A DNA stretch of 64,000 nucleotides, taken from contig NC_047019.1 of assembly GCF_902652985.1 (NCBI RefSeq), forward strand, positions 33,108,001 through 33,172,000, given 5' to 3'. This document shows, one piece after another, positions 24,048-46,179 of this stretch (positions within the stretch are counted from its first letter, which is position 1; every line of letters starts with the position of its first letter). Below the pieces are notes generated by a model, which was not told the DNA's origin, did not search any database, and saw only the letters and a list, made by a program, of their open reading frames with translations. The translations under genes and the position numbers were made by a program. This DNA is from Pecten maximus (lineage: Eukaryota).

Positions 24048-27000
24048 TTATATATTAAAATCAAACACTGACCATGTTATTTCCTTATTCGTATCTTCTT
24101 CACCACTTGACTCTTCATTGTCATCAAAATCTTCATCGACGGTCATTGATATGTCGTTAGAGAAACTTTCCTCAATATTTGTTGATAGGTCGAGGGTCAA
24201 GTAATCCAAAGATTGGCCAGGAAGTATTCCAATCGGAATCTGTGACCAATCCACTTCATCTGCAAAGGAATCATCAGTTCAAGTACCTATTTAGCTTGTA
24301 TACATTAATCATACATTAGAGCTAACACTGAACTTCAGTGTCACCAATGTCCTTAATATTAGCTTGTATACATTAATGGATTACAGCTAACACTGAACTT
24401 CAGTGTCACTAATGTCCCTGTTAGCTTGTATACATTAATCATTCGTTTAAGCTAACCCAGAACTTCAGTATCACCATTAATCATATATTAGAGCTAACAC
24501 TGAACTTCAGTGTCACACCAATGTCTCTGTTAGCTTGTATACATTAACGGATTACAGCTAACACTGAACTTCAGTGTCACACCAATGTCTCTGTTAGCTT
24601 GTATACATTAACAGATTAGAGCTAATACTGAACTTCAGTGTCACCATTAATTATACATTAGAGCTAACCCAGAACTTCAGTATCACCATTAATCATATAT
24701 TAGAGCTAACCCAGAACTTCAGTATCGCCATTAATCATATATTAGAGCTAAAACTGAATTTCACACACATTCGTTTAAGCTAACCCAGAACTTCAGTATC
24801 ACCAATGTCCTTGTTAGCTTATTTTAAGAACTGCCCAAAATTGTGACCTCATCCCTTTATTTGTATTTCTTTCATTTCTATTGTACTTACAAATCAGCAT
24901 GAACTAAGGACAAGCACCCTTTATGGTTTATGAAATATAAAGTGTTTTGCCTTAAGTTGTCAGATGCAATACATCTCTGTATCTATCAAGAGTTACATAT
25001 GTAAGGATATCATAAGAAAAAAACAGAGTACGGTATTCAGAACATAAATACCTTCATAGAACTGCCAGTTTAAATGGGCACAAACATTCCGTGATGCCAC
25101 TTTTACAGGAATGTCATCTTCTGAAGCTTCTAATTTCCTTTTCCGGGATTTTAAATCTGAAAAATATTAAGATATCATTTTCAGAATGTGTATTTTGTAC
25201 AGCATTTGCTTCTTTTTGAGCATGTACGACATAATAATATTCAGTATGAAACTCTAGATGGTGGTCAGAAACAGACTAAAGCAGACTTATTTTCTGTCAA
25301 GTTTTCACCAAGAAACATATTGAGATTAAACTGTGTCAGAAAATATTAAGCAAGAAACCAATGGGCCTTAATCGTCGCCTAGGTTCTGATATACATTATA
25401 TCAATACAACAAGAAACCCATGGGCCTTAATCGTCGCCTAGGTTCTGATATACATTACATCAATACAACAAGATGCCAATGGGCCAAAATGGTGACCTGG
25501 GTTGTGATTTCCTTATATAAACTACAATAAAGTAAAAATCCCTCCCCAGGGGCAAACATGAGACCCCAGGGTCATGAAATTCACAGTTTTGGTAAATCAC
25601 CTTAGACCCTTCCATCTACGAAGAGTAAGTTTAACTCAAGCGTATCTGGCATGGGTACTGAGAAGAAGATTTTTTTTTTTTTACCATATCCCTCAAATGT
25701 AAGTTAATACAGACAAAAGAATTATTTTGGTGATTATATAAAAGATGAAATTTATAAGGAGATTAAATGTTACTATTGTAACGGAAAGCGAAAGTAGGTC
25801 TTTTGGCGGGAAATAGAAAACGAAACTAGACCTCGTCCGGCAGAAGCTTCAACGTTACGTCCCAGTAAAACATGTAATAGACATAGATATCTGTAATCAC
25901 GTGGTACTTTCGTTAGTATAAATACAGGTGAGCTGAGCTGCTCGGGTTTCATTCTGATTCTGATTTCGACGAGTGAAGATCAGGGAACACTAGTAACGTT
26001 ATACTATAGAATTGCATAGCATTACCATATACATAGGAAACAGTGTGGGCCTGAATAAGGCTGGAATACTAACACACTGTGGGGTTAGCGGATTGACAGG
26101 GTTACGGTACTGTACTTATATTATCACAGCGGTGATAGGGAGCCTGACAGTTGACTGTTGGCAGTGCACTGTTGGCAGGTTAGTGTACAGGTAACTCTGG
26201 GAGGCTGACCGACGTATAGCTAGCGGTCGGGTTGTTGTGTATATATGTGCGCATACAGGAGCTCGCTGCAAACAGCAGTGAGAACGGCGGTCTGACGGAC
26301 TGGTGCTGTATGCGTGGTTAACATATACACAGGCTCTAGCAGAGTGCGTATTGCAGCGGTTTTACTAGTAACGCGGTAGCGGCATTCAGAATCCCTGTTG
26401 TTAGTAGTATAGATAATTACGTAGTGGTCAGACAACCACTGGATACAATCATACTCATTGTTTTTACGCCCGGGCGGCGTTACGCTCTTATAGCAGAACA
26501 CATATATGTATATATTGTACTTAGGGTAATATGTAGTAAATATCTCGAATCCCAAGACGTGACTTGGTAACGAACCCCTTACACGTCACAAGATTTTGGT
26601 GGCAGCGGTGGGGATCCGATAATCTATGTATTTTTTACCCTTGGCTTTAGATAAAAGCTGTACTTTATATATAATAACAGTGTTTTGCTGTATTGCTAAT
26701 TGTTGTTAAAATGGCTGAAGGAGGGTACGATAGTAAAGCTGTTGAGGCTGAGATAGAGAAACTTCGTGGGGAGCTTTCTCAAATACTGGATAGCGGTGTA
26801 GCAACCAACACAGCGCTCACTACTTCTACACCTTATGGCCCCCGGACCGGAGATGGGTGTAGACAGGATATGGATAACTCGGGCAGTGGTCGGAAGGACT
26901 ATACCGACTATTATAGTAGCCCGAATTTCGGAAATTACGATAGGGATGGAGCGCGTGCTGGCCAGTATGATAAGGAAATGTATCAAGGAGTTGGTCCTGC

Positions 27001-30000
27001 ACCACAGGATAGCTATCGTAATAACAGTCCTAGCAGGGGCTACCGTGTAGAGCAGCGTACGGATACCGGGAGAAAAACTGTTAATATAAAACCCGCGACG
27101 TACGATGGCTCCGGCTCATGGCGCGATTACCAGTCACATTTTGAGGCGTGTGCCAGTATTAACCAATGGACTATGGAACAGAAAGGATTGTTCTTGGCAG
27201 TATCATTGAGAGGACAAGCACAGGGAGTACTGGGTAATTTGCCTGATGACCGGCAGCAACATTACTCTGTCCTGATTAAGTCTCTAGAGGACAGATTTGC
27301 GCCACCTCACCAGACGGAATTGTACCGTGCCCAATTACGGTCAAAAAGACAAAAAGCTGGGGAAACGTTGCCAGAGTTAGGACAGACAATACGCAGATTA
27401 ACGACACTTGCGTATTCTACAGCACCAGCGGATGTGCTTGAAACACTGGCCAAAGAGCAGTTTATTGATGCTTTAAGTGACGGGGATTCGCGTATCAGAA
27501 TAAAGCAATGCCGACCAAAGACCCTGAATGAAGCTGTACAGCTGGCGGTAGAGCTAGAGACATTTAAGCGGGCAGAAAAACGTAAGGATGACGGTACTGG
27601 TTTTCTGCGTCAAACTCTTACCGAAAATAACGAGAATGAGGACAGTACGGCTGGTAGCGAGCTGAAGTCCATGATAAAGACATTGACGGAACAGATGGAA
27701 TCATTGCAGAAGGATGTCTCTAACCTGAAGTCTGGCACCGCTTCTGGAGAACGTAAGCGACCAAGGAAAGAGAACGGTGGTACTAAAGGCACCCAAACAT
27801 TCCGTTGCTACTATTGCAACAAGGAGGGGCATATCAAGCGCAATTGTCCCAAGTTAAAGAAAAACTCCAACAAACAGGTCCCCGCCACGACCAGTGATAG
27901 CGATGATGCACGTCCAGTTGGAGCTGCCTCTTGTACTAAGGAGGCTGGTATGTTCATAAATGTGTCCATTCAAGGCAGTAAGGCTAACCTACTACTGGAC
28001 ACTGGGGCAACCGTTACGCTTATCTCGACCTCACTTTATGAGAAAATGATGGCTAGGCCAGCATTACACCAAGTTTCCCAGACAATCATTACAGCCAGCG
28101 GAGAGCCTTTAGATGTTAAAGGCAAAGGTAGATTCTCGCTGAACTTTGGCAACAACGAGAGGATGACAGATGCGGTTGTAGCCAAGATCAACGTTGATGG
28201 AATCCTGGGGTTGGATTTTCTCATGGATAATCGTTGCAGTGTAGACATGGACAAGAGTCAGATGATGATGGACGGCGTTATTGTGCCTACCCAATTTCGA
28301 GGAAAAGTAGGTTGTTACCGAGTGAGTGTGACTTCTAAAGTGGAACTCCCAGCGCGCAGCGAATTAATAATTCCTGGGCGTATCATAGTGCCCGATGGCA
28401 CGTTGGAACCAACAAATGATCTCGTTCTTGAGGCATCAGAAAGTTTCCTGAAGTCAGATAGAGCACTAGTAGCCAGGTCTCTGGTCAAATACCAGCCTAC
28501 TGTTCCGATCCGTATATTGAATACGGCTGATACACCACAGACAATCTACCCGGGTACTTGTGTTGCTAAGGCGACAGAGGGGGAATGCTTACAACAGAAG
28601 ACAGGCCCGGAGGAAATGGATGAGCAGCGACCAGACATCAAGCAATTGCTGGAACGATCAAAGACTCATTTAAGCGCAGAGGAAACAAGCCAGGCGGAGG
28701 AATTATTATTCCGGTACAGAGGTGTTTTTGCCGCCACAAACGCTGACTTCGGACGTACTGACAAAGTCAAACACCAAATAGACACAGGTATCGCGCGGCC
28801 TCTCAAACAACCAATGAGGCGCATTCCTGTGCATCAGTCAGAGGAAGTAGACAAACATGTAGAGGATATGTTGGAAAAGGGAGTCATTGAACACTCAACC
28901 AGCCCATGGTCCTCTGGTGTGGTATTGGTCAAAAAGAAAGATGGAACCACTCGTTTCTGCGTCGACTATCGTCGCCTTAACGATGTGACTGTCAAGGACG
29001 CATATCCGCTGCCGCGGATTGACGACTCGCTTGATAAGTTAGCAGGTTGCCATTGGTTCTCTACGCTGGATCTTTGCTCAGGCTATTGGCAGGTTGCAAT
29101 GGACCCTAGAGATAAGCCAAAAACAGCATTTACCACCAGAAAGGGCTTGTTTCAATTTCGGGTGATGCCGTTTGGCTTATGCTGCGCACCAGCCACGTTT
29201 GAAAGGCTGATGGAATCTGTCTTGGCCGGGTTACAATGGGACATATGTCTGGTTTATTTAGACGATGTGATTGTTTTAGGTAAAACATTCAATGAGATGC
29301 TGTTGAACCTGGAGAGAGTGTTTGATAGATTTCAGGCAGCAGGGCTAAAGTTGAAAACCAAGAAGTGTCATCTGTTTGCCAAACGGGTTGAGTTTCTTGG
29401 CCACATAATTTCCGACAAGGGGGTAGAGACAGACCCCAAGAAAACAGAGATCGTGAAGAAATGGCCAGAACCCTCAAGTGTAACGGAACTTCGGTCATTT
29501 CTGGGCCTGTGCAGTTACTATAGAAGGTTTATTGAAAACTTTGCGGGTATTGCCAAATGCTTGCATAAGCTCACTGAGAAGGGCAAGGCGTTTGACTGGA
29601 GCAAGGAATGCCAAGACGCATTTGATACCTTAAAGAACAGATTGGTGACAGCTCCGATTCTTGCACATCCACACTTTGACAAAGAATTTATTCTGGATAC
29701 TGATGCCAGTAACAATGCTCTGGGAGCCGTATTGTCGCAGCGTGTTGATGGTAAGGAAATGGTCCTTGCATACGCCAGCCGCACATTGACCAAGAGTGAG
29801 AGACGGTACTGCGTCACAAGGAAAGAGCTTTTGGCAGTAGTACACTTCGTGAAGTATTTCAGACACTATCTGTACGGTCGAACATTCCTTGTGCGCACGG
29901 ACCATAGCTCTTTACGGTGGCTGCTTAACTTCAAAGATCCGGAGGGCCAACTTGCCCGATGGCTAGAAGTGTTGAGCACCTACGACATGAGAATCGAACA

Positions 30001-33000
30001 TCGACGTGGAGTCCATCATGGCAATGCTGACGCCCTTAGCCGTATCCCATGCAAGCAGTGTGGGTATCGTTCGGATTGGGAGAAACAGTCCCGGGGTGTC
30101 GTAAATACCGCAGTAGCTGCCAACAGCAAGAACATTGGACCTCAGTCATCAGAAACATCTTCCGTCATACAACAGCGACAGGCATCCGACAAAGACCTGT
30201 GTGTTGTAATAGAATGGCTTAAAGATGGCAAGAAACCATCCTTTGAGGATATCCAGAATCAGAACTTCGTGATCAAATCCCTGTGGTCACAATGGAATCA
30301 GCTCGTGTTGGATAAAGGTGTTTTATACAGAAGATGGGTCTCAGACAAATCCAATACAACGCTTCAAGCGGTAGTACCACTTGGTGAGAGAAGGGACATA
30401 CTTCAACAATACCATGACGGTAGAACGGCAGGGCATTTGGGAGTTCGTAAGACTCTCTGTAAGATAAGGCAGGGGTATTACTGGCCTGGTCTGCAAGGGG
30501 ATACTAGGAGGTATGTTGCCGGCTGTGAAATTTGCACCAGGCGCAAAAATCCAGTTCGGAAGAATAGAGCGCCAATGCAAATAGTCCAGTCAGGTTTCCC
30601 GATGGAGCGTATAGCCGTTGATATACTGACTGACTTACCTGAAACAGGAAACGGCAACCGGCATGTGTTAGTAGTTGGTGACTACTATACGAAATGGATG
30701 GAATGTTTCGCAATGCCTAACATGGAGACAACCACTATTGCGACTCTGATAGTGGAGGAGGTCATATCAAGGTTCGGCATGCCATACGCGATCCATTCTG
30801 ACCAAGGCGCTCAGTTTGAGAGCAGGTTATTTGCAGAGATGTGCCAACTCCTTGGTACGAGAAAAACACGTACTTCACCGTATCATCCTCAGAGTGATGG
30901 TATGGTGGAAAGGTTCAATAAAACCTTGGTGACAATGCTTAGTGCATTTGTCAACGAACATCACACAGACTGGGATGAAATGCTGCCGTACGTGACCATG
31001 GCATATCGCTCGGTGGAACAAGAAACCACGGGTTGCACTCCAAATTACCTGATGTTGGGGCGAGAGGTAACAACACCACTCGACATACAATATGAGATGC
31101 CAGTAGACGACAAATCCATACCTCAGAATGAATGGGTGTGGACACTTCAAGAACGCATGGAAGAGGCACATCGTTTTGTGAGGTTGCATACCGATGGCGA
31201 GATGAGGAGGCAGAAGAAATACCATGACCAAAAGGCTTACTGGAACCAGTACAAACCAAATGACAGTGTTTTTGTCTTCTTTCCAAGAGTCAAACCAGGC
31301 AAATCTAGGAAACTAACGTCCATGTGGCAGGGACCATTCAAGGTGATGGGGAAATGCACAGACGTTACATACAAGATACCTTGTGGGTACCGCGGAAAGC
31401 CGCAGGTTATACACGTGGACCGTATGAGGCGTCATCGGTCACAAGTACTACGCGGCGAGGAGAAAGTTGAAACTTCAAAGCACCAGGCAGATGAGGCCGG
31501 GCTTGAGTTATCGGAACACAAAATCGTTCCAGAATGCCAGGACTTAGCGGAGGACACTGATGTCGATACAGCCGTTGACTCGGGACTAGGACCAGAACAT
31601 GGTCGCCCGCGTCGCAGCAGACATCCTCCGAGCTGGCACCGCGACTTTGTAGTATAGTCAGCTTATCAGAATATGCTCTCAACAAGAAGTCGGGAGTTCA
31701 GATCCAGTAACAGTAACATAAGACAGTTCTTTAAGGAGCAAGTAGTCCTTGTAGTTAGTTATTAAGATATTGTACAATGAAACGTTCACTTATTCATAAT
31801 TGGTATGTGGGGACACTGATACCCGGAGGCGTGGGTAATGTAACGGAAAGCGAAAGTAGGTCTTTTGGCGGGAAATAGAAAACGAAACTAGACCTCGTCC
31901 GGCAGAAGCTTCAACGTTACGTCCCAGTAAAACATGTAATAGACATAGATATCTGTAATCACGTGGTACTTTCGTTAGTATAAATACAGGTGAGCTGAGC
32001 TGCTCGGGTTTCATTCTGATTCTGATTTCGACGAGTGAAGATCAGGGAACACTAGTAACGTTATACTATAGAATTGCATAGCATTACCATATACATAGGA
32101 AACAGTGTGGGCCTGAATAAGGCTGGAATACTAACACACTGTGGGGTTAGCGGATTGACAGGGTTACGGTACTGTACTTATATTATCACAGCGGTGATAG
32201 GGAGCCTGACAGTTGACTGTTGGCAGTGCACTGTTGGCAGGTTAGTGTACAGGTAACTCTGGGAGGCTGACCGACGTATAGCTAGCGGTCGGGTTGTTGT
32301 GTATATATGTGCGCATACAGGAGCTCGCTGCAAACAGCAGTGAGAACGGCGGTCTGACGGACTGGTGCTGTATGCGTGGTTAACATATACACAGGCTCTA
32401 GCAGAGTGCGTATTGCAGCGGTTTTACTAGTAACGCGGTAGCGGCATTCAGAATCCCTGTTGTTAGTAGTATAGATAATTACGTAGTGGTCAGACAACCA
32501 CTGGATACAATCATACTCATTGTTTTTACGCCCGGGCGGCGTTACGCTCTTATAGCAGAACACATATATGTATATATTGTACTTAGGGTAATATGTAGTA
32601 AATATCTCGAATCCCAAGACGTGACTTGGTAACGAACCCCTTACACGTCACACTATACAGGAATACTGTAACGTTACTATACAGGAATACTGTAACGTTA
32701 CTATACAGGAATACTGTAACGTTACTATACAGGAATACTGTAACGTTACTATACAGGAATACTGTAATGTTACTATACAGGAATACTGTAATGTTACTAT
32801 ACAGGAATACTGTAATGTTACTATACAGGAATACTGTAATGTTACTAAACAGGAGTACTGTAATGTTACTATACAGGAATACTGTAATGTTACTATACAG
32901 GAATACTGTAATGTTATACTATACAGGAATACTGTAATGTTACTATACAGGAATACTGTAATGTTACTATACAGGAGTACTGTAATGTTACTATACAGGA

Positions 33001-36000
33001 ATACTGTAATGTTACTATACAGGAATACTGTAACGTTACTATACAGGAATACTGTAATGTTACTATACAGGAATACTGTAATGTTACTATACAGGAATAC
33101 TGTAATGTTACTATACAGGAATACTGTAATGTTACTATACAGGAGTACTGTACAAACCTTGCACCCTGTATATAGCTTTATCCCGGTCCTCCTGTGTATT
33201 TGTTCCTCCCTGTCCTCCAGGTGAAACCATATCAGTTCCATCCTGCACCAAAGGTAAAGTTTGTTCGAGATTGTCACTTTCTCCCTGCCCTGTGGAGAGA
33301 GTCTGGTCCAGATCATCACTTTCTCCATCCCCGGAGTATACAGCCTCCAGATCTTCAGTCTCTCCCTCCCTTGTGAATACTGTCTGATCCAAATCATCAC
33401 TTTCTCCTTCCCCTATGAATAGTGACTGTCCTTTAGGTGAAGATGGCTTCAGTTTGTTTATAAGAGTATTTAACATTGTAACCTGGGTCTGTGAATACTC
33501 TCCTTTCTCTTTTCCAAGGTCTAATAATCTAGAAAGTAAAAACATAAAAATCAAAGATGAAGGAAGAGGGTACCACCACTCAGTGCTGTATATCTAACAA
33601 AGAAGATATCTAACTTATTACACTCTCTCCTAATAGGTTTTGTTTCCCCATTTGCAGGTACCTGTCTATAATGAACTTGTGTTGTAGTTTTCTAAATACT
33701 TATAGTGTTCAGGTACCTCTCTATTATGGCCTGACGTTGTTGTTTTCTATATAGTGCCCAAATACCTCTCTATTATGGCCTGACGTTGTTGTTTTCTATA
33801 TAGTGCCCAAGTAACTATCTATAATGCCCTGATGTTGTAGTTTTCTATAGAGTACCCAAGTACCTCTCTATAGTGACCTTGTGTTGCAGTTTTGTTTATA
33901 GTGCCCAGGTATCTAGAATACCCTGATGTTTTTTTCTATAAAGTACCCAGGTACTTCTCTATAATGACCTTGTGTTGCAGTTTTCTATACAGTGCCCAAA
34001 TACCTCTCTATAATGCCCTGATGTTGTAGTTTTCTCCAGGTATTGATATAGTAGCAATATATTTCTCTATAATGCCCTCATGTACCATTACCTGACTTAC
34101 CTTTTGATTAAGGGGATGGTATGGCCACACAAATTATTGAGGAGTGACCGCAGTAGAGGACGAAAAGTCAAGGATACTGACTGCTGATACAGTCTTGTCG
34201 GAGTTTGACTTAAATTCTTGGCACCTACAGATACAAACAACAAATGTAATGGTATGCGCATGAAAACAAAAGGTTGAATTATGAGTTTGATTTACATATC
34301 ATAAGTTGGTGATGCATCACATGGGAATCTAAGTGGCCTTTAACCATCACAATTTTGTCCAGATATACTTATCAGTGACCAAATATTATATTTTCAGTGA
34401 AACATGATTACATGATAATCTAAAGTCCATAAATCCCAGGTGCTGGAAAGGATTAAAGTGTTTGTATAAGGATATAACAGATCAATTATCTAATTACAAA
34501 AAATGTATTATCCCACGTACCAGCTTGTCCATTGGCTGTAACTATAGTGTTAATCCAACGACACATTGTGTAGTTCCGTCTACAGGATTCTGTTGATATT
34601 TCTGATGTCAACTTTATCAAGAGACTGTTAGTGAGATTAACTTGATGAAGGAATTGAAGGACAGGTTTCCAGAATGATATAATCATGTGTGGAAGAGTAT
34701 AGCCTGGCTTGTCCAACTCTGTAAAAACATAATCAGATTTGACAGGTAATCAGATGGCAGGTATCTACACCTATAATGTACTAAGTTCAACCAAGCAAAT
34801 CTATATATAGACATGATCTTCAGGTTGGAAAGTAAATGTGTGAATAGATCTTCATATATCACAATGAGTTTTTCATTTTATGTATGGAATCCCCTTGATT
34901 ACTCTATTGTAATTTTCTTTCTGTTAAATCTATGTACACTGAGGTATGAATGTATACAAAACTTTTATCAATGGACAGGTTGTTATACAGTATTCTCAAA
35001 TGAAATGGCATTTTCAGCTGCACTATCTACAATCTTGTGGGCATACAAAGAACAAAGATACCCAAGCTCACCAAGGTATACAAAGATACCCAAGCTCACC
35101 AAGGTATACAAAGATACCCAAGCTCACCAAGGTATACAAAAATATCCAAGCTCACCAAGGTATACAAAGATACCCAAGCTCACCAAGGTATACAAAAATA
35201 TCCAAGCTCACCAAGGTATACAAAGATACCCAAGCTCACCAAGGTATACAAAGATACCTAAGCTCACCAAGGTATACAAAGATACCTAAGCTCACCAAGG
35301 TATACAAAGATACCCAAGCTCACCAGGGTATACAAAAATATCCAAGCTCACCAAGGTATACAAAGATACCCAAGCTCACAAGGGTATCCAAAGATACCCA
35401 AGCTCACCAAGGTATACAAAGATACCCTGGTGAGCTTTGGTATCTTTGTATACCATGGTGAGCTTTGGTATCTTTGCATACTCTAGTGAACTTGGGTTAC
35501 CCAAGCTCACCAAGGTATACAAAGATACCCTGGTGAGCTTTGGTATCTTTGTATACCATGGTGAGCTTTGGTATCTTTGTATACTCTAGTGAGCTTGGGT
35601 ATCTTTGTATACCCTGGTGAGCTTGGGTATCTTTGTTCTTTGTATACCCTGGTGAGCTTTGGTATCTTTGTATACCCTGGTGAGCTTGGGTATCTTTGTA
35701 TACCCTGATGAGCTTTGGTTTCTTTGTATACCATGGTGAGCTTTGGTATCTTTGTATACTCTAGTGAGCTTGGGTATATTTGTATACCCTGGTGAGCTTT
35801 GGTATCTTTGTATACTCTAGTGAGCTTGGGTATCTTTGTATACCCTGGTAACCTAAGGTATCTTTGTATACCCTGGTGAGCTTGGTATCGTTTTATATAC
35901 CCTAGTGAGATTGGCTATATTTGTGTACCCTGGTGAGCTCTATTTTACCCTCTCCTTCTCATCCCTCCAGGTAAGCTAAAAACATTATTCTTACAACTAC

Positions 36001-39000
36001 ATCTAAAGTGTTTGTCTAGTTAACTACAGCAAGAGAAACAACACCTCTTAAATTGTTACAGTATGTCGATACATTTATTTTATTTTAAAATCATATGTAC
36101 TAAAGACATCTCTGAAATTATTACAGAAGATACATTTATTAATCCCCTGCTATTTGAAAAACGGGGGGGACTATAGGTTTACCGTCAGTCCGTCCGTCTG
36201 TCTGTCTGTCTGTCATGCAACAGTTGTCAGGACAACTCCTTCTAAAGTACTAATCCGATTTTAACTAAACTTGGTATACATGATCAGTATAACATGTAGT
36301 TGTGCATCCCACACTTTTTTTCCGAAAAAACATTTTTCAAAATGGCTGCCGGCTTCTCATTGGTTGAGGCTTGGCCGGACAACTCCTCCTAAAGTATTAC
36401 TCCGATTTTAACAAAACTTGGTATACATGATCAGTATAACATGTAGTTGTGCATCTCATTCTTTTTTCGGAGTAAAAATTCTGAAATGCGAGTAGAAATG
36501 GATATATCTCGCACCTGGTGAGTAAAATAGCTCAAAGTCATAGATCATTTGAGGTCTAATGTCACTTTTTTTCTAAATTAGAGCTTGTCCGGGGCATAAC
36601 TTCCATGTTATTTCACCTACGTTTAACCAACTAGGTATACTTATGTATTTTTGTTTTTGTTTTTTTTTTTAAATATTTGTTGTCCGCAACCTGAAATATT
36701 CTTCCTGTTGTTCTTTTGGGAAAACTAGTTTAATATATCTATTGAAGTTCTGTCGAAAATAAATGGGAAATAAATAGGTGCACTCCTAGGTCAGGCAGGG
36801 GACTTTGTATTGCTGTTGCAATACTGTCCATCCTTGTTTTATTTTAAAATTAAATGTACATTTATTTTATTTTAAAATTAAATGTACTAAGAACATCTCT
36901 TAAATTGATAAAGTAGATATTTTAAAACAGTGTGTACTTACTGGAAGGAGGAATCCTTAAAGCTTGTAGCTGCTCACGAGTAGGTATCATAAAGCCATCT
37001 TCTACCAGGCAGGCCACTAACTCCTGTCTATACAAAACAAATTATTAAACATTTTACTAGCAGCATCATGTTGAGAAATTCTCCACAAGCAAATACATTA
37101 CTAACATCTTACATTTGTACTTCTTTTCCAGTACTTCAGGATTAACTTGACTATATTTTTTTATGTTATGGAGATAAACACAAATAAAGGGAGTGTACTC
37201 TAAATATATTTTAAAGTGTGAAGCTGTGAGAGTACACTCTATAACATAAAAATCATTTAAGTTAATCCTTATAATATAGTCTACTGTACACAATCCATGT
37301 GGAAATTCACTTTAATTGACCATCTCTTCTCTTAAAAATTTTCACCCAGCAAAAGCGACACTACAAACAGCGTCATTTTCTTATAAATGGGCTGATTACA
37401 TAGTACATTTTCAAGCCAATGAAAATGCTTGTTACAAGCCATATTAGATAATAAATTATCATGGTGAGGAAAGGTAAATTAACATAGCTCAATGAACAAG
37501 AGATGATATTCTGATACTGCTGTGTATACTTGTTGGCCCTACATATCTACAGAGATAAATTATCTACCAGTGTAGGCTTCACATACAGGTACCTCGGACA
37601 TCCTAAATATAACAGATATTTCTAACAAACCGTAGCATTACCAATGATCTCAGATGAACAGATAACAGCACAAACATAAAACCTACCTATTTTCAATGGG
37701 AAATTTTTCCAAGTCTTTTACAATTTTCCAGGAATTGTCTTTGTTTGTTTTCTGAAATGAAATAGTACAACTATTGTTTTATTAATGTGTCAATAATAAT
37801 TATGTATTCATACTTCACGAAACATTCTTATATGTTGTTGAAATGTTGTCGAGCTAAACCTCCAACTTTAAATAATCCCTAAGATCTAGAGGGTAGCCAG
37901 GGTAATACACAAGTGTATGGTCATGGTATCACAATTCCATTGCATCATAAGACTAATTTCTTGTTGATTGTATAATGTACACAAATATTTCATTTTATGT
38001 TGCATGGATAGACAGCATTATACCATGACACCCCAGTATTTTAAAGTTGAAGAGAAAACAAAAAATACTTAACAAACTTTAAACTTGACAAATGAAAATG
38101 AGAAATATTGGGTGTGTTCAAGCACTAATCAATAAAAAAAATGTAGCTGACAGGAAAAAAAATTCAATTCAAATATGAATTCCTTTTATTTGTAATACTA
38201 ATTCCAAACCTGTTGGTAAGGTTACAAAACGTCATGACAGAATCTAAAGGAAGAGCGTGTATCTCTCAAACATTTTACATATCTCCCTCACACATGTCAA
38301 CATCACTGTAAATTTTACACAATAGTTATAACACCGCTGTTCTTTATTGTTGGTATGGTGATGGCTGCTAGTTAAGCACTTGCTTTACCTGAAACTTCTG
38401 CTGCTCATAGTTTTCCAGGAGCCCTTTAACATCAAATTTATCAGCAGAGTTTTCAGTATTCTTCCTCTCAACTTTCTGTGCCATGGAACTCAGCTGCTTT
38501 TTCCAAAATTCATTCTGAAAGATTATTGATTCATCCTATATTTATAACAGAACTGATTTTTATCAAATACTAACAAAATCACATTATACTTTGCCAAATA
38601 AAACCTGCCAAGTTATGAAGGAATCAATTTAAAAACATGTTGAAACAAATCTATGTCCAAGTCTAACTTCAATATGATTAAAATTGAAAGAAATTAATTT
38701 ACATTCACAGGGCTTGTCCTAGTTTAGGTGATGATACAGATCAAGAGATATACACCTGTACATGTATATAGTATTGCATTATAATTTACTTATTTTGTGA
38801 GAAGGAAAACAACTGGAATATTTCCTAAATTTTATAGTTCATTGTATCATGAGTCATTTCTATTTTATTGCAGATATATAATTCAGAGGGTTAAACAGAT
38901 GTTAATATTGATCTAGATTAGTACCTCATATAAGTACTAATACAAATAAAGCAAGTTTCCAATAATATACTTTGTCAGGCTACGAGATAACTTGAGCCAG

Positions 39001-42000
39001 GAAGATGCAGTATCCTGAACTAAAATACATGTATATGAGGTACCTTGAGCCAGGAAAGTGCCCAATCACATGCTGAAACAAGCATGGGAAGAGGTGGCAG
39101 GTGTCGATGGGTGGCATCATGTCGCAGTTCTACAATCCACTCAGGCACACCAACCTTTACAATAAATCAACCTTTACAATAAATCAAAGTGTAACATCAG
39201 TTCTACAATCCACCCAGGCACACCAACCTTTACAATAAATCAACCTTTACAATAAATCAAAGTGTAACATCAGTTCTACAATCCACCCAGGCACACCAAC
39301 CTTTACAATAAATCAAAGTGTAACATCAGTTCTACAATCCACTCAGGCACACCAACCTTTACAATAAATCAACCTTTACAATAAATCAAAGTGTAACATC
39401 AGTTCTACAATCCACCCAGGCACACCAACCTTTACAATAAATCAAAGTGTAACATCAGTTCTACAATCCACCCAGGCAAACCAACCTTTACAATAAATCA
39501 AAGTGTAACATCAGTTCTACAATCCACCCAGGCACACCAACCTTTACAAATAAATCAAAGTGTTACATCAGTTCTACAATCCACTCAGGCACACCAACCT
39601 TTACAATAAACCAACCTATAAAATAAATCAAAGTGTAACATCAGTTCTACAATCCACTCAGGCACACCAACCTTTACAATAAATCAAAGTGTAACATCAG
39701 TTCTACAATCCACTCAGGCACACCAACCTTTACAATAAATCAAAGTGTATCATCAGTTCTGCAATCCACTCAGGCACACCAACCTTTACAATAAATCAAA
39801 GTGTAACATCAGCTCTACAATCCACTCAGGCACACCAACCTTTACAATAAATCAAAGTGTAACATCAGTTCTACAATCCACTCAGGCACACCAACCTTTA
39901 CAATAAACCAACCTTTACAATAAATCAAAGTGTAACATCAGTTCTACAATCCACCCAGGCACACCAACCTTTACAATAAACCAACCTTTACAATAAATCA
40001 AAGTGTAACATCAGTTCTACAATCCACCCAGGCAAACCAACCTTTACAATAAATCAAAGTGTAACATCAGTTCTACAATCCACCCAGGCACACCAACCTT
40101 TACAAATAAATCAAAGTGTTACATCAGTTCTACAATCCACTCAGGCACACCAACCTTTACAATAAACCAACCTATAAAATAAATCAAAGTGTAACATCAG
40201 TTCTACAATCCACTCAGGCACACCAACCTTTACAATAAATCAAAGTGTAACATCAGTTCTACAATCCACTCAGGCACACCAACCTTTACAATAAATCAAA
40301 GTGTATCATCAGTTCTGCAATCCACTCAGGCACACCAACCTTTACAATAAATCAAAGTGTAACATCAGCTCTACAATCCACTCAGGCACACCAACCTTTA
40401 CAATAAATCAAAGTGTAACATCAGTTCTACAATCCACTCAGGCACACCAACCTTTACAATAAACCAACCTTTACAATAAATCAAAGTGTAACATCAGTTC
40501 TACAATCCACCCAGGCACACCAACCTTTACAATAAACCAACCTTTACAATAAATCAAAGTGTAACATCAGTTCTACAATCCACCCAGGCACACCAACCTT
40601 TACAATAAATCAAAGTGTTACATCAGTTCTACAATCCACCCAGGCACACCAACCTTTACAATAAACCAACCTTTACAATAAATCAAAGTCTTACATAAGA
40701 ATGACAATGTTAAATACAGTGGAACTTCGTTAACTGGAACTCAACGGGGCCACAAGAAAACTTTGAGTTATCTGAGTGTTCGAATTAAGCAAGTTGTCAT
40801 TTTTGGTGCAAAGTTTGGTCAATATTTGTCAACATTATATAATCATTATAACTCCGCTCTGTCGCTCATCAGTTAAGTGTAAAGACTGTTCAATACATGT
40901 AAATATGTAATATTTCGTTCTGTCACTCGTAGTTTGGTGTAGTTTTGCTGATATACAGTCTCGATAAAGTTTCTTTCGCTTAGTCAATTCAATAACGATC
41001 TGATGTAAATAACATATGTGTGTATGTCATGTTTGCAAAAGGAATAACGATAAAATGGAATTCAACCGAATAACAATTTATTAATGTTATATCAAATAAC
41101 TGTTTAAATTTAACACAGATTATATGTAAAACGTAACAGAACCATTACCTTATATTGGACATATAAAATACTGTTTGATAGTCCTACCTACGTTTTACCG
41201 ACAACCACGCCATTTCTATGTGTATTAGCACAGGAAGTTGGGCTGTGCATGTGCGTATAAAATGTTACTGTTACTGAGTTGGTGTGTTATCCGATTTAAT
41301 AGACAGCGCTGACCGTTACAGTCATACTCTGAACACCTCAGCAGTTATTAGGCTATTGTTTCAGCAGTTTAAATATCTAATAGGCACCAGTGACTGTTTC
41401 ATTTCTACACCTGTAAAAACATCAGCCGAGTAGATCTACCGGTGTGTCAGAGATTAGTTCCGCTTAAGAGAGCGGGTAGATGAGTTGTTGCTATCATGTG
41501 TACTATTATCGGCGACCACCTTAGGAAATTACCTGATATAAGTAAACAGTACTTTTTATCACCGACAGTTATTGTTATAAGATTCCACCGATTTCTGGAT
41601 ATCTGTCCGTGACTGTTATATACACAGACTGGATATCTGTCCGTGACTGATATAATAGGTACAGATCGGTCAGGTGTATCCCCTTACCTTGCTAGCCAGC
41701 ACATGGACAGGCTGGGCATACTCCCCTATCTGTCTTTTTTCAGTTATGTGATTGACAAATCTGCAAAGAAATCAAAGTTTAATCCAACCTATCTGTTACT
41801 GATATAAGCAATGGATGCATGTTTGACATTTGAAGGGTTACTATTTGATCCAAAAACTTTAGTTTCTATCAAAAATAGAATGAAAAACTAAATATGAAGC
41901 TGCCAGTGAAAAATCTGACCAGAAACTTTTTGTTTTTCTTTCTTGTTTTCCTCAATCAAAGTAAGGGTCATCATGTAAATATAATATTCTATTACATATT

Positions 42001-45000
42001 TGTTTATGTTAACTGTAGTGTGTGTACCTTAAGTGTCAGGTTAACTGTGTGTACTGTACCTGATAAGTGCCAGGTTAACTGTATGTACCTGATAAGTGTC
42101 AGGTTATCTGTGTACCTGATAAGTGCCAGGTTAACTGTATGTACCTGATAAGTGTCAGGTTATCTGTGTACCTGATAAGTGCCAGGTTAACTGTATGTAC
42201 CTGATAAGTGTCAGGTTATCTGTGTACCTGATAAGTGTCAGGTTAACTGTGTGTACCTGATAAGTGTCAGGTTAACTGTGTGTACCTGATAAGTGTCAGG
42301 TTAACTGTGTGTACCTGATAAGTGTCATTATCTGTGTGTACTCGATAAGTGTCAGGTTAACTGTGTGTACCTGGTAAGTGTCAGGTTATATGTGTGTACC
42401 TGATAAATGTCAGGTTATCTGTGTGTACCTGGTAAGCATCAGGTTAACTGTGTGTACCAGATAAGTACCAGGTTAACTGTGTACCTGATAAGTACCAGGT
42501 TAACTGTGTGTACCTGATAAGTACCAGGTTAACTGTGTGTACCTGATATGTGCCAGGTTAACTGTGTGTACCTGATAAGTGTCAGGTTAACTGTGTGTAC
42601 CTGATAAGTGTAAGGTTAAGTGTGTACCTGATAAGTGCCAGGTTAACTGTGTACCTGATAAGTGTCAGGTTAATTGTGTGTATCTGATAAGTGCCAGGTT
42701 AACTGTGTACCTGATAAGTGCCAGGTTAACTGTGTACTTGATACATGTAAGTGCCAGAGTAACTATATGTACCTGATAAGTGCCAGGTTAACTGTGTGTA
42801 CCGGATATGTGTCAGGTTAACTGTGTACCTTATAAGTTTTAAGTTTATTATGTACCTGATAAGTGCCAGGCTGTATGAAGAGCGTATCTCATTATCTTGT
42901 TGCCGATCTTGTTTTGACTGAACTGCCTTCTGGTGATAAAGCTTGGCATGAACGATGGCTGCTGTGCTGTCAATGGCTACTGGAATTTTGTGTAAAGCCC
43001 TAGGAGAAAGAAAAAGTTCAACTTTAAACTAATACTACATCAGCAAATATGTTCAATGTTGTTAGATCTCAAAATGCATGGGAATATTATATACAACCTG
43101 GAGAATACATGTATTAAATGAGATGATACTGCTTCTACCTTTTTCGACATAACCATTTGACTTTCTGACCTTGAAATTTTAGTTTTCAATAATTTCATTT
43201 ATTACATGAAGGTGCAACATAAATGAATAAATATCCTAGCAAATATTTTCAACTACTGAGAGTTAAAAAAATGAATGTAATAATTTCCTTTTTTGTTCGT
43301 TTGTTTGATGAACCTTTCACATTTCAGAGTTGTTGCAATACACAACTACAGAATTGCAGTCACCTGCTTCTCCAGACATCAATCCTCCCAACAGCATGTG
43401 TCTGTAGCTGGGAATTATCACCAAAAATCTCATTGTAGACACACTCAAACTCGTTCCTACAAAAACAAAAAATATATTTATTAACTAAAAGTTCATGCTG
43501 CAACCATTGATGTATGATGCATTTCTGTAATAAACACATTTGGTGGAAATTTCAAATGCTTTCATATTACACCAACAGCATTAGAGGATTACTTGGGACA
43601 GTCGACCTGTAACATCGCAGCTGGCACAGTAATGTCAGATAATAAATCAGATGAGCAGTAGATTTTATGTCAAATAAGTAGAGTATCATCATTTACTTTG
43701 TAACAGAAAAAAATTGCGGAAAATCTCATTTAACAAATTGCTGCCTTGCTGGGCGTGCAAAATTTTGTATATCTTTTTTTTGTGCTTATTTTTTTGAAAC
43801 AATGAAATATATCTTTAAACCTTGAAAAATGTGAACTTTACAACAACTGATGCTCCTTTTCGACATTTTCCAAGTCCTTTTCGGCTATTCTGCCACTTTT
43901 GGACACTTTGCTTTTACCAATACTGTTATTTATCCGGAGATGAAATCTAGCAAATGGTGGAGTTATACATGTACATGAGATAAACCACTAGATAACTTAT
44001 CTATCCTTATCCACTATAGCCTCTTCTGACTGTGTATTGACACCAACACACTAGAATGGATATTCATACCCTGCCTATATTACTCTCCAATGACCATCTG
44101 TCAGAAATGGTCAATCCGTCGTCCAGAGCTGTATCATTTATTTCTCGCAGTTATGAGTTTTAATCGCTGTTTAATTTTGAAACAGTTGATTTCACTCTGT
44201 GACATTAATTTTTTTCCTCGCTTGACATTTGGACAAGTGATCTCAGAATTTTAATAGTTTGACCCTGAATTTACTAGTCCAAATGAATTGGACTACTAAC
44301 TTCTGGAACCAAATCTCATTCATTGAAATGAAATGAATGCACTATTTTACAATAGGATTTACATTGTGCAAAATACAATTAATTATTTTTCCATTATTTT
44401 GAGGAAAATTAATATGTATACCCTAGAAAGAGATTAATTCCTTTACTTTTAAAGTCACCACAATGCCTACTTGGAAAATGTAAATGGATGTTGTTTTGTG
44501 TAAGAATTTTTTATATATTATGTAGTGATGTGTCGATGATCGGGAATGATCGATTAACGGTTGATTATTGTCAACCGTTTACGATCATCGATCATGTTTT
44601 GTATAATCGATTAATCGAGTCCCTATGTTTATATACATATGCCATCAGAATTTTTATTGTAATTGTTAACTAATTATATTTCTTAAGACACTATTCAGTT
44701 AAAATTCAATATTCTTTATTCACATGAGTATGGCATCTTTAGCTCTAATCTTTAAGCCCCTCAGTCTTGAAAAATCATTGAGGCAATGTAGTTGTCTAGT
44801 TGATACTCATAGGAGTCATAGCTCAGTGAACCATGATATTACTGAAATATATTTTTTTAAATGTATATACACGCTGTATGTTACATCAAAACAAAACAAA
44901 ACGATAATAAGTGTTAACTTACAAGCTGCAATCATGTGTGTATTTTCTTGTCATAATAAACTTGTAAAGTTTTATAATCACTAGTTTGTTAATTTTAATT

Positions 45001-46179
45001 TCAATAGGATGTTTTAATGGCATTATACATTCTTTGACACATAGATATAAATAGCAAATGAATAAGTAAGTGTCAGTTGCCTTCTCTGGCTCAATTTTGT
45101 TTGCATTTTTAATTTCAAACAGACTAATCAATAACAACCGATAATAATCGTATAATCGGTTACAGAGATCATCCGATTACAACCGATCATCGGTTGCCGT
45201 GTTCAACCGATTACCCAACACTAATATTATGATAAAATATAAATTATTTGCACAAAATTGTTGAAAATGTTTACAGTAAGTCAGTTATGAGGTAATACAA
45301 AACAACTTCAGTCATTGTCAACTACCAACATTATTTCTAAAACAACAGAAAGCTGTGATTATAAGTGGGATTAGGCCTACTCTCACCATAATGGCTTAGA
45401 CGATTCTCACACTTGTAACATCGCGGCCGGAATCTTATGATAGTGACAAACAGCCTGGGCGTTGATTGGCTATTGACAGACAGGTAAAATCAGCCAGTTT
45501 TGACAACTTACATCTCGGGACAGAGAAGGCAGTTTTCAATTAATTTTTTTCGATAGCTTCTGATGTTCAAGCTTATAAAGCTGTGGTTAAGATATCAAAA
45601 CTCATTCAGGCTACACTTTAATACTGCCGGTAAAGTTGACAATAAGTATATCAAAGTTGTCTTAGACCGACGGTCTACATGTAATATATTGACATGTACT
45701 ACATGTATAGTCTAATCACATGGGCACGTCTAGTTTGACATTATAAAAATAGTCAGAAATACCTACGTATTTATTTAAATAGCTATTTTTTGTAAACAGC
45801 TAATAGTAAAGTGTAGCGGAACTGGACCGGATCGATCGTCCTACTACAAAATGTAAATCTAGACATAACCCTGTGGTCTGGTACTACATATATACTCCAA
45901 CAATGTTACAGTTTGACATGTCACAGTAACGTCAGACAATAAATCGGCTTATCAGCGGCCTCTTGTGTTATAGTAATAAGCATGCAGTGATCAGCTTTTT
46001 GGCTAGCAGGTGATGTCGCAGTTCGTGGCAAGGATACGATTTTAGTACATATGAATCTATTTGTATATCGGTTATCGAAATTGTCAGTATCAGAGACATG
46101 GGTACTATATACACAGTAAATATCCTGTATTTTACCTGTTTTTCCACGGCACAACTCTTCTTTTGGTGTGATCACTCAT
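24048..46179 (-). CDS. LAS1L: LAS1L ribosome-biogenesis HEPN endoribonuclease, 13 coding exons, ~583 aa
   Basis: Exons in transcript order: 46136-46179, 43364-43456, 42856-42999, 41688-41760, 39044-39154, 38389-38514, 37687-37751, 36942-37027, 34521-34718, 34101-34224, 33158-33528, 25052-25156, 24048-24259. All introns are GT-AG with consistent phases; total 1752 nt. Las1 hallmarks: RVVPW, WRSR...PVAIDSTA, YSLALIRFVN, GVPEWIVELRHDATH (HEPN RHxxxH), WLKNEFW, EDGFMIPTREQL, FWKPVL and C-terminal WQ...VDWSQIPIGILPGQ. Confidence 0.93.
24290..24822. repeat. Degenerate intronic tandem repeat
   Basis: Recurring gagctaacactgaacttcagtgtcacc and ttagcttgtatacattaa modules just inside the last LAS1L intron. 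Confidence 0.85.
25351..25680 (+). mobile_element. Truncated HINE-like fragment with a tandemly repeated 5' end
   Basis: caagaaacc.atgggccttaatcgtcgcctagg occurs twice at a ~59-bp period with a diverged third copy, followed by ccctccccaggggcaaac.tgagaccccagggtcatgaaattcaca shared with the 6102 family. Confidence 0.65.
25777..26590 (+). repeat. 5' LTR
   Basis: tgtaacgg...gtcaca; direct repeat of 31839-32652 at an offset of 6062; TATAAATA at 25917-25924. Confidence 0.97.
26597..26614 (+). promoter_or_regulatory. Primer-binding site, tRNA-Leu
   Basis: TGGTGGCAGCGGTGGGAT is complementary to the 3' end of tRNA-Leu(AAG/TAG), ...ATCCCACCGCTGCCACCA, and lies 6 nt after the LTR. Confidence 0.85.
26711..31657 (+). 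CDS. Gag-Pol polyprotein (single uninterrupted ORF, 1648 aa from the ATG)
   Basis: Capsid-like region (KPATYDGSGSWRDY), CCHC knuckle CYYCNKEGHIKRNC, protease LLDTGA, RT YLDD, RNase H DTDAS/TDH, integrase HHCC plus DDE (DIL, SDQG, GMVERFN) and GPF module. Confidence 0.97.
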   Translation: MAEGGYDSKAVEAEIEKLRGELSQILDSGVATNTALTTSTPYGPRTGDGCRQDMDNSGSGRKDYTDYYSSPNFGNYDRDGARAGQYDKEMYQGVGPAPQDSYRNNSPSRGYRVEQRTDTGRKTVNIKPATYDGSGSWRDYQSHFEACASINQWTMEQKGLFLAVSLRGQAQGVLGNLPDDRQQHYSVLIKSLEDRFAPPHQTELYRAQLRSKRQKAGETLPELGQTIRRLTTLAYSTAPADVLETLAKEQFIDALSDGDSRIRIKQCRPKTLNEAVQLAVELETFKRAEKRKDDGTGFLRQTLTENNENEDSTAGSELKSMIKTLTEQMESLQKDVSNLKSGTASGERKRPRKENGGTKGTQTFRCYYCNKEGHIKRNCPKLKKNSNKQVPATTSDSDDARPVGAASCTKEAGMFINVSIQGSKANLLLDTGATVTLISTSLYEKMMARPALHQVSQTIITASGEPLDVKGKGRFSLNFGNNERMTDAVVAKINVDGILGLDFLMDNRCSVDMDKSQMMMDGVIVPTQFRGKVGCYRVSVTSKVELPARSELIIPGRIIVPDGTLEPTNDLVLEASESFLKSDRALVARSLVKYQPTVPIRILNTADTPQTIYPGTCVAKATEGECLQQKTGPEEMDEQRPDIKQLLERSKTHLSAEETSQAEELLFRYRGVFAATNADFGRTDKVKHQIDTGIARPLKQPMRRIPVHQSEEVDKHVEDMLEKGVIEHSTSPWSSGVVLVKKKDGTTRFCVDYRRLNDVTVKDAYPLPRIDDSLDKLAGCHWFSTLDLCSGYWQVAMDPRDKPKTAFTTRKGLFQFRVMPFGLCCAPATFERLMESVLAGLQWDICLVYLDDVIVLGKTFNEMLLNLERVFDRFQAAGLKLKTKKCHLFAKRVEFLGHIISDKGVETDPKKTEIVKKWPEPSSVTELRSFLGLCSYYRRFIENFAGIAKCLHKLTEKGKAFDWSKECQDAFDTLKNRLVTAPILAHPHFDKEFILDTDASNNALGAVLSQRVDGKEMVLAYASRTLTKSERRYCVTRKELLAVVHFVKYFRHYLYGRTFLVRTDHSSLRWLLNFKDPEGQLARWLEVLSTYDMRIEHRRGVHHGNADALSRIPCKQCGYRSDWEKQSRGVVNTAVAANSKNIGPQSSETSSVIQQRQASDKDLCVVIEWLKDGKKPSFEDIQNQNFVIKSLWSQWNQLVLDKGVLYRRWVSDKSNTTLQAVVPLGERRDILQQYHDGRTAGHLGVRKTLCKIRQGYYWPGLQGDTRRYVAGCEICTRRKNPVRKNRAPMQIVQSGFPMERIAVDILTDLPETGNGNRHVLVVGDYYTKWMECFAMPNMETTTIATLIVEEVISRFGMPYAIHSDQGAQFESRLFAEMCQLLGTRKTRTSPYHPQSDGMVERFNKTLVTMLSAFVNEHHTDWDEMLPYVTMAYRSVEQETTGCTPNYLMLGREVTTPLDIQYEMPVDDKSIPQNEWVWTLQERMEEAHRFVRLHTDGEMRRQKKYHDQKAYWNQYKPNDSVFVFFPRVKPGKSRKLTSMWQGPFKVMGKCTDVTYKIPCGYRGKPQVIHVDRMRRHRSQVLRGEEKVETSKHQADEAGLELSEHKIVPECQDLAEDTDVDTAVDSGLGPEHGRPRRSRHPPSWHRDFVV
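31839..32652 (+). repeat. 3' LTR
   Basis: Direct repeat of the 5' LTR; the ORF translations within both copies are identical. Confidence 0.97.
32653..33152. repeat. 24-bp minisatellite (~21 copies) next to the exon 11 donor
   Basis: Unit ctatacaggaatactgtaatgtta. The remainder of its terminal unit (aatgttactat) sits on the far side of the LTR element. Confidence 0.96.
33655..34080. repeat. Degenerate ~50-55-bp intronic tandem repeat
   Basis: Recurring tacctctctataatg.cct..tgttgtagttttctata.agtgccca. Confidence 0.8.
35044..35940. repeat. 28-bp minisatellite in inverted (fold-back) arrangement
   Basis: caaagatacccaagctcaccaaggtata runs forward at ~35053-35425, reverse-complemented at ~35426-35497, briefly forward at ~35499-35529, then reverse at ~35530-35940. 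Confidence 0.95.
36138..36840 (-). mobile_element. HINE-like element in reverse orientation
   Basis: Inverted repeat tcccctgc (36143-36150) / gcagggga (36795-36802), (gtcc)(gtct)n microsatellite, and two to three ~150-bp internal units containing ggacaactcct.ctaaa, related to the 18263 family. Confidence 0.75.
39126..40695. repeat. ~56-bp minisatellite made of the LAS1L exon 5 acceptor plus the first 30 coding nt
   Basis: Minus-strand unit atgttacactttgatttattgtaaag|GTTGGTGTGCCTGAGTGGATTGTAGAACTG, ~26 copies, some carrying an extra 17-nt acceptor duplication. Confidence 0.96.
40718..40800 (+). mobile_element. Tc1/mariner (pogo-like) MITE terminus, other end not found
   Basis: TA followed by CAGTGGAACTTCGTTAACTGGAACTC. 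A related opposite-orientation terminus (gagttaacgagatttgactgta) occurs at ~7822-7843. Confidence 0.4.
42008..42870. repeat. ~27-29-bp minisatellite made of the LAS1L exon 3 3' end plus donor
   Basis: Minus-strand unit CCTG(G/A)CACTTATCAG|gtacacacagttaa, ~30 copies, contiguous with the real donor at 42855. Confidence 0.95.
44523..45223. mobile_element. Non-autonomous hAT-type MITE in LAS1L intron 1
   Basis: Termini TAGTGATG...CAACACTA, perfect 8-bp TSD ATATTATG (44515-44522 / 45224-45231), and clustered ATCG/AACCGAT subterminal motifs. Confidence 0.88.

What the first reader, a model, noticed from the sequence alone, without database searches (positions are those of the whole stretch)
39044..40695. 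Splice acceptor of the catalytic LAS1L exon amplified ~26-fold into a minisatellite
Each ~56-bp unit holds the real 3' splice site (ttgatttattgtaaag) plus the first 10 codons (VGVPEWIVEL) of the exon carrying the HEPN RHDATH motif. Only the last copy continues into the catalytic motif. Splicing to an upstream copy reads VGVP(E/G)WIVELMLHFDLL then TAA, a premature stop. An essential gene therefore has to skip ~25 near-identical decoy acceptors. That makes it a natural test of exon definition and possibly a copy-number-tunable route to nonsense-mediated decay (inference).
Basis: partly seen in the sequence, partly recalled or inferred. Interest (0 to 1): 0.7.

Follow-up and report, generated by a model that had tools for sequence, protein, structure and literature searches.

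The report
Decoy splice-acceptor repeat in scallop LAS1L
The end of one intron and the first 30 bases of the next exon of the scallop ribosome-maturation gene LAS1L are repeated 25 times in a row, yet the spliced RNA seen joins to the last, genuine copy, so this is likely a tolerated repeat of a kind ('mirage') already described in lancelets and common in this genome.

Summary
The array is real. LAS1L intron 4 (king scallop, minus strand) ends in 25 units of 56, 57 or 73 bp, each holding 26 intron bases and the first 30 bases of exon 5. There are 34 decoy AG sites, all leading to a stop; only the last copy reaches RHDATH. Contigs of three RNA runs from three studies join exon 4 to that copy; no decoy joint was listed, though contigs drop rare forms. 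A DNA run also holds the repeat. This is a 'mirage' minisatellite as described in lancelet globin BflGb6, and this scan has noted many on other DNA. They are common here: 15 more in 1.8 Mb, plus a second one at this gene's exon 3 donor. Likely mechanism: exon definition picks the acceptor nearest the exon 5 donor. Every decoy is AG|GT, so recursive re-splicing could rescue errors, but 3 of 5 other acceptor mirages lack GT, so it is not required. Tunable NMD has no support. Side result: array ends span splice sites about 3-7 times more densely than they lie 61-180 nt away (small sample).

The parts
39125..40696 (-). Acceptor mirage array: 25 units (26 intron nt + first 30 nt of exon 5), 10 with an internal 17-bp acceptor duplication; 34 decoy AG|GTTG sites
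39044..39154 (-). LAS1L exon 5 (111 nt, in frame), carries the HEPN motif RHDATH; only AAG acceptor of the gene's 13
   Evidence: RNA contigs
39424..40590 (-). Higher-order duplication inside the array: a 611-nt exact repeat at an offset of 556 bp (nine units)
41688..41760 (-). LAS1L exon 4 (73 nt), ends AAG, phase 0; joined to exon 5 in RNA contigs
42019..42870 (-). Second mirage: 27-29-bp array made of the exon 3 end and its donor, about 30 copies, 23 with AG|GT intact
   Evidence: X11 contig uses the first donor
42856..42999 (-). LAS1L exon 3
38389..38514 (-). LAS1L exon 6, joined to exon 5 in three runs
40700..41600 (.). Rest of intron 4: mostly high-copy dispersed repeat sequence
   Evidence: summed contig depth in the thousands to tens of thousands in DNA run X10 against about 5-10 for unique DNA
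21570..46179 (-). Whole LAS1L gene, 14 coding exons, 608 aa

Best explanation
A 56-bp piece spanning the LAS1L intron 4/exon 5 border is repeated 25 times, the spliced RNA seen uses the last copy, and the array is likely a tolerated, near-neutral 'mirage' minisatellite whose decoys are likely passed over by exon definition. Shown: the anatomy, the stops, the joint to the last copy, the repeat in a DNA run, many like arrays in the genome. Inferred: birth by one local tandem duplication, growth by slippage and unequal exchange (17-bp and 556-bp nested duplications); intron 4 was about 1 kb before and is 2.5 kb now, long enough for splice sites to be paired across the exon; only the last acceptor has the full 111-nt exon and its GTACCT donor behind it, whereas each decoy has 30 exon bases; rare mis-splices would carry a premature stop and be removed by NMD without a regulatory role.
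For: Exon 4 joined to the genuine copy in X11 (loose end reads on into the RHDATH codons), X14 (one 1215-nt contig over exons 4-5-6) and X9 (one 564-nt contig): three studies. No joint to the first decoy AG at 40670 or to the AG at 39171 was listed. DNA run X10 holds head-to-tail unit contigs at depth 124 and 181 against 9.74 for the unique flank. Precedent: BflGb6 acceptor mirage with normal RT-PCR product (PMC3087553, passages). Exon-centric proximity rule for introns over about 200-250 nt (PMC9225289, passages; human data). Base rate: 15 further splice-site-spanning arrays beside Pfam-matched exons in 1.8 Mb (11 donor, 4 acceptor), one acceptor array with 22 intact AG|TA decoys and no GT (L113).
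Against: Only assembled contigs were available, which drop rare forms, and NMD would hide decoy products; decoy use of several percent is not excluded. X14 shows extra depth of about 7.6 on the first unit that the exon 4-5 contig does not explain; the record was cut from the tables, exon 4 shows no matching excess, and it did not appear. Decoys look as competent as the real site: 34 of 34 keep AG, and all carry a branch-point-like yTnAy 26-30 nt upstream except the first AG, which has them at 13 and 40 (motif recalled). Each decoy is also followed by an AG|GTTGGT donor-like site 56-73 nt on, which is nearer than the real donor is to the real acceptor, so simple exon definition does not by itself exclude decoy exons. 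In human donor-side cases one or two pseudo-sites are used (6-16, CBS; PMC1557585 introduction).
Confidence: 0.7

Rival explanations
1. Recursive-splicing ladder. Exon 4 is often spliced first to an upstream copy; the joint regenerates AAG|GTTGGT, which is re-used as a donor to a later acceptor, so the decoys act as zero-length exons and the final mRNA is correct.
For: 34 of 34 decoys are AG|GTTG. The regenerated 9-mer scores 6.5 of 9 against the recalled donor consensus, inside the range of the gene's real donors (6-8), above the exon 5 donor (6), and resembles the exon 11 donor AAG|GTTTGT. BflGb6's acceptor mirage is also AG|GT (supplement 4 of PMC3087553). In L071, 63 of 69 decoys read AG|GT although the genuine site reads AG|GC. 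The route is invisible in mature mRNA (PMC8605326 introduction).
Against: GT is not needed for such arrays to persist: the genuine exon starts GT in 2 of 6 acceptor mirages of this genome and decoys in 3 of 6, against 4 of 20 non-mirage acceptors (Fisher p 0.60 and 0.29). The GT is simply a Val codon and is not kept in Mizuhopecten (Phe). The same donor forms at the genuine joint, where its use would delete the catalytic exon in frame, so it must be largely silent there. Described ratchet points are conserved and lie in long introns; this intron is 2.5 kb.
Confidence: 0.15
2. One reading: a measurable share of transcripts is spliced to decoys and destroyed by NMD, so array length tunes LAS1L dose.
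For: All 34 decoy routes give a premature stop with nine or more introns downstream; decoys keep full acceptor signals; X10 suggests another array make-up than the assembly (G:E unit depth 18.6:12.7 against 8.8:9.6 word counts), so length probably varies; unexplained extra depth on the first unit in X14.
Against: No decoy joint listed in the five non-DNA runs; main contigs run unbroken across the junction; mirages occur at many unrelated genes, some with 60 or more decoys, with nothing singling out LAS1L; published mirages leave splicing normal.
Confidence: 0.12
3. The array, or its 556-bp exact inner duplication, is an assembly artefact.
For: A 611-nt exact repeat inside the array could be a mis-join.
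Against: Unit-to-unit contigs at 13-19 times unique depth in X10 call for at least as many units as the assembly has; ten or so unit variants recur in order. X10 may be the source of the assembly or another animal (3 differences in exon 6); no listed piece spans the array.
Confidence: 0.03

Closest known systems
Amphioxus 'mirage' minisatellites, above all globin BflGb6 (PMC3087553; seen: passages and supplement 4); also PGBD5, Adh3, troponin C (PMC3902484, passages; the Adh3 and troponin papers not seen)
   Same: Tandem copies of an intron 3' end plus exon 5' part upstream of the genuine exon; copies keep splice signals; normal mRNA is made; BflGb6 is also AG|GT.
   Different: 25 short units against 3-6 of 150-160 bp; a mollusc; a single-copy gene whose yeast ortholog needs this motif for viability; a donor mirage one intron upstream.
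Human F7 intron 7 37-bp VNTR, and 6-16, CBS, LAMIN B2, PDGF arrays (PMC1557585; seen: abstract and introduction)
   Same: Minisatellite whose end unit spans an exon border and repeats a splice site; the authentic site dominates. Direct match for the exon 3 donor array.
   Different: Those are donor-side, where 5'-to-3' scanning favours the real site; here the real acceptor is the last of 35.
Recursive splice sites / ratchet points and RS-exons (PMC8605326; seen: abstract line and introduction)
   Same: Acceptor directly followed by a donor-like GT; a roughly 50-nt out-of-frame cryptic exon behind each.
   Different: Not conserved, not in a long intron, donor weak and identical at both ends of each unit, no intermediates shown.
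Poison exons / splicing-coupled NMD (as described in the introduction of PMC8605326)
   Same: Inclusion would give a premature stop.
   Different: No use seen, no conservation shown, arose by recent local duplication.

Membership tests
Mirage minisatellite | Tandem unit spans an intron-exon boundary | tested here: met
   26 intron + 30 exon nt per unit
Mirage minisatellite | The end copy is part of the genuine exon | tested here: met
Mirage minisatellite | Copies carry splice signals | tested here: met
   34 of 34 decoys keep AG
Mirage minisatellite | Normal splicing persists | tested here: met
   Correct joint in X11, X14, X9; shows presence of the normal form, not absence of others
Mirage minisatellite | Length differs between haplotypes | tested here: inconclusive
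   X10 unit depths differ from assembly word counts; depth is no copy number
Mirage minisatellite | Somatic instability (reported for Adh3) | not testable with these tools
   No long reads from tissues
Recursive splice site | Acceptor directly followed by a usable donor | tested here: inconclusive
   AG|GT in all copies; consensus match within the range of real donors, use not shown
Recursive splice site | Conserved site in a long intron | tested here: not met
   Intron 2533 nt; exon 5 starts with Phe in Mizuhopecten
Recursive splice site | Recursive intermediates, lariats or sawtooth coverage | not testable with these tools
   Only assembled contigs offered
Poison exon / regulated NMD | Alternative form carries a premature stop | tested here: met
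   34 of 34 by sequence
Poison exon / regulated NMD | Alternative form is actually made | tested here: inconclusive
   None listed in five runs; contigs drop rare forms; extra depth in X14 unassigned
Poison exon / regulated NMD | Conserved in orthologous introns | not testable with these tools
   No related genomes held
LAS1L / Las1 HEPN nuclease | Las1 domain with RHxhTH motif | tested here: met
   Pfam PF04031; RHDATH fits RHxhTH (10.1101/760058, passages)

The most novel reading that the evidence does not exclude
The array is a self-correcting ladder of 34 recursive splice sites: exon 4 is spliced to upstream copies, each joint rebuilds the donor AAG|GTTGGT, and re-splicing steps down to the genuine acceptor, so a recent minisatellite has made a working ratchet array in a 2.5-kb intron of an essential gene.
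Probability: 0.15. Interest if true: 0.6.

Novelty: new member of a known kind. Interest (0 to 1): 0.27.

Why it matters
On the best reading it is one more clean example of how well splicing ignores near-perfect decoy acceptors. Its use is as a test object: 34 decoys, nine of them identical to the real site over the whole 30-nt exon head, in front of a catalytic exon, let exon definition and recursive rescue be told apart with one minigene. The wider point is the survey: such arrays may number in the thousands in this genome (about 8 per Mb found with a method that sees only Pfam-matched exons), and array ends seem to pile up across splice sites. If that holds genome-wide it would bear on how minisatellites are born or kept and on the tandem-duplication model of intron gain.

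Tried and rejected
AG|GT as a requirement for acceptor mirages: rejected (2 of 6 genuine sites, 3 of 6 decoy sets). Loss of decoy AGs as a mark of selection: none lost, but with about ten variant sites in 56 positions the test has no power. RNA structure hiding the decoys: two folds gave loose, G-U-rich structures, no shuffle control was run, not used. A dispersed-repeat origin of the unit: all 16 listed matches lie in this array (the tool scores only best candidates). A paralogous Las1 exon: none. An exon-centred survey: dropped because the coding model ranked known exons 237th to 20,013th of 43,508. The loose end of an X10 contig inside exon 5 at 39094 has no exact match in the genome; unexplained, perhaps a chimeric tip. 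No cover of the array's intron part in X14, X9, X6 is not taken as evidence of absence. Zhuo et al. 2007 (PMC1783408) is not held. Literature searches: mirage+amphioxus+minisatellite gave 2 papers; recursive splicing with tandem repeat terms listed no paper linking the two among 20 shown of 7,629; enrichment of tandem repeats at splice junctions, none on point among 15 shown of 23; scallop tandem repeats, no mention of splice-site arrays in the 12 listings of 28 seen (listings only). Supplements of these scallop papers were not read and may bear on repeat content.

Full report
1. Observation. The window is scallop DNA: exon 3 is identical to a protein labelled LAS1L-like of Pecten maximus, and a 14-exon model on the minus strand (46179-21570) gives that 608-aa protein exactly. 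Intron 4 ends in an array at 40696-39125. It has 25 units: 13 of 56 bp, 2 of 57 bp, 10 of 73 bp. The basic unit is the last 26 bases of the intron plus the first 30 of exon 5; the 73-bp form repeats 17 bases of the acceptor. That makes 24 decoys with a full exon head and 10 short ones, 34 in all. In frame from exon 4, 34 of 34 reach a stop within 4-28 codons. Only the last copy goes on into RHDATH, which fits the Las1 catalytic consensus RHxhTH (10.1101/760058, passages; loss of its key residues is lethal in yeast, essentiality in scallop is inferred). It is the only Las1 match in the genome. A nine-unit block is duplicated exactly.

2. Is it real DNA? All 16 listed matches to the last two units and the exon lie at this place. 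DNA run X10 holds unit-to-unit contigs at depth 124 (E type) and 181 (G type) against 9.74 for the unique flank, about 13 and 19 times, where the assembly has mean word counts of 9.6 and 8.8. Depth is no copy number, but inflation by the assembler is unlikely and the shift in make-up hints at length variation. X10 may or may not be the assembly's source.

3. What the RNA shows. The search offered 24 runs, all as assembled contigs; six were laid, X10 and X14 twice, on two stretches holding about one unit each. X14, X11 and X2 join exon 4 to an exon-5 head; X11's loose end runs on into the genuine exon; X2's continuation was not shown. X14 (1215 nt) and X9 (564 nt) are single contigs over exon 4, the genuine exon 5 and exon 6; X6 covers only the exon 5-6 joint. 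So three studies show the correct joint. No joint to the decoy AGs at 40670 or 39171 was listed. Against this: contigs drop rare forms, NMD would hide decoy products, and X14 has extra depth of about 7.6 on the first unit whose record was cut from the tables; exon 4 shows no matching excess and laid no such record, so I cannot assign it.

4. A second array. The 27-29-bp array at 42870-42019 begins with the last 15 bases of exon 3 and its donor; X11 uses the first donor. The gene has 10 merged arrays, two of which span one of its 26 splice sites.

5. How common is this? I took 1.8 Mb of the same genome in nine 200-kb blocks on eight contigs, two beside the window. With the window, tandem repeats cover 24% and 424 arrays have three or more copies. 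Of 460 acceptor-type and 478 donor-type open frames crossing an array end, 294 and 300 passed a coding-score cut and were scanned against Pfam; both LAS1L arrays were recovered as controls. Hits at E up to 0.001, plus two weaker ones, were read by eye; one hit at E 0.0002 (L073) and a transposase were not inspected. Outside the window, 11 donor-side and 4 acceptor-side arrays span a splice site, three more abut a donor, one was a coding repeat, and L142 looks like a diverged acceptor mirage. These splice sites are read from sequence, not from RNA. That is about 8 per Mb with a method blind to exons without a Pfam match. As controls I scanned 361 of 1164 frames 0-60 nt from array ends and 553 of 2268 at 61-180 nt. 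At equal score cut the counts are 13 spanning, 6 near, 7 far (transposases and one re-found exon dropped): 5-7 times denser at the junction by exon, 2.7-3.9 by gene. The sample is small, clustered in a few genes, and the control queries were shorter and filtered for splice signals, so it is a lead.

6. Mechanism. Birth: the unique intron just upstream still reads as the unit's intron half, so one local duplication seeded the array; nested 17-bp and 556-bp duplications point to slippage and unequal exchange (inference). Choice of acceptor: the decoys are not crippled. All keep AG, and nearly all have a branch-point-like motif 26-30 nt upstream (motif recalled); at the genuine site it lies at -30, 13 nt before the extra AG at -17, probably too near for that AG to be used (inference). 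What only the last copy has is the rest of the exon and its donor. In human data, splice sites flanked by introns over about 200-250 nt are paired across the exon, nearest pair first (PMC9225289, passages); intron 4 is 2533 nt, about 1034 before the array, intron 5 529 nt. I give this 0.7. One weakness: every unit also ends in AG|GTTGGT, a donor-like site, so 56-nt decoy exons could in principle be defined; they would carry the stop too.

7. The recursive rival. Exon 4 ends in AAG and every copy starts GTTG, so a mis-splice rebuilds AAG|GTTGGT, which matches the recalled donor consensus as well as several real donors of the gene and resembles the exon 11 donor. Re-splicing would give correct mRNA and leave no trace in contigs (PMC8605326, introduction). 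BflGb6 is AG|GT as well, and two notes of this scan on sea urchins say the same, though my search words selected for that. The survey does not support a rule: genuine exon starts are GT in 2 of 6 acceptor mirages, decoys in 3 of 6, against 4 of 20 other acceptors; L113 keeps 22 AG|TA decoys. Recursion may still happen at this locus: 0.15.

8. Known relatives. Tandem duplications of intron-exon borders are 'mirages', described for lancelet Adh3, globins, troponin C and PGBD5; BflGb6 is acceptor-side and RT-PCR was normal (PMC3087553, passages and supplement 4; PMC3902484, passages). Human F7, 6-16, CBS, LAMIN B2 and PDGF are donor-side cases (PMC1557585, abstract and introduction). PMC2812944 was seen as outline only. 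This scan's notes list donor mirages in this genome and acceptor mirages of up to 94 copies in urchin, annelid, mussel and abalone; they gave me the name and the paper, which I then read, and are otherwise unchecked.

9. Verdict. Observation confirmed with small corrections; interpretation partly supported. A new member of a known kind, neither the largest nor rare. Interest 0.27, held up by its value as a test object, the open recursive reading and the unexplained pile-up of array ends at splice sites.

Noticed in passing
G000 stretches L005-L184 (1.8 Mb): Array ends span splice sites of Pfam-matched exons more densely than they lie further off: 13 spanning (window about 31-44 nt) against 6 at 0-60 nt and 7 at 61-180 nt at the same coding-score cut; ratio 5-7, p about 0.0004 by exon; ratio 2.7-3.9, p 0.013-0.055 by gene. 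Small, clustered sample, and the control queries were cut and filtered differently. Cause unknown; an exon edge may stop creeping arrays or shield them from deletion (inference).
   Followed up: partly
window 42019-42870 (-): Donor-side mirage at LAS1L exon 3, about 30 copies of 27-29 bp; X11 contig uses the first donor.
   Followed up: yes
L069-L072 (G000:C2) and L036 (G000:C5): A Slo/BK potassium-channel gene region carries four mirages (up to about 95 copies, over 5 kb); an ABC-transporter gene carries three donor mirages within 10 kb.
   Followed up: partly
L071, array ending near 9314 (+): About 70 acceptor decoys, 63 reading AG|GT while the genuine site reads AG|GC: a better test of recursive rescue than LAS1L.
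   Followed up: partly
survey: Donor mirages outnumber acceptor mirages 11 to 4 (5 with the diverged L142) at near-equal numbers of frames scanned (300, 294); not significant (p 0.12-0.21).
   Followed up: partly
window 38991-39056 (-): The last 13 bases of exon 5 recur 53 nt into intron 5 without a GT behind them: perhaps a decayed two-copy donor duplication.
   Followed up: no
window 39094: An X10 DNA contig leaves exon 5 into 22 letters not found in the assembly: chimeric tip or an insertion allele.
   Followed up: partly
window about 26000-32000: GC-rich stretch in LAS1L intron 11 whose opposite strand looks by eye like an LTR-retrotransposon pol/integrase region (recalled likeness, not tested).
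   Followed up: no
window 35052-35939: A 28-bp array that switches orientation near 35420 with a 103-bp piece across the switch: an inverted minisatellite able to form a long hairpin.
   Followed up: no
window 8220-14054 and 18507-21055: Large arrays (209 x 28 bp; 16 x 158 bp); tandem repeats cover 24% of the 1.86 Mb examined.
   Followed up: no
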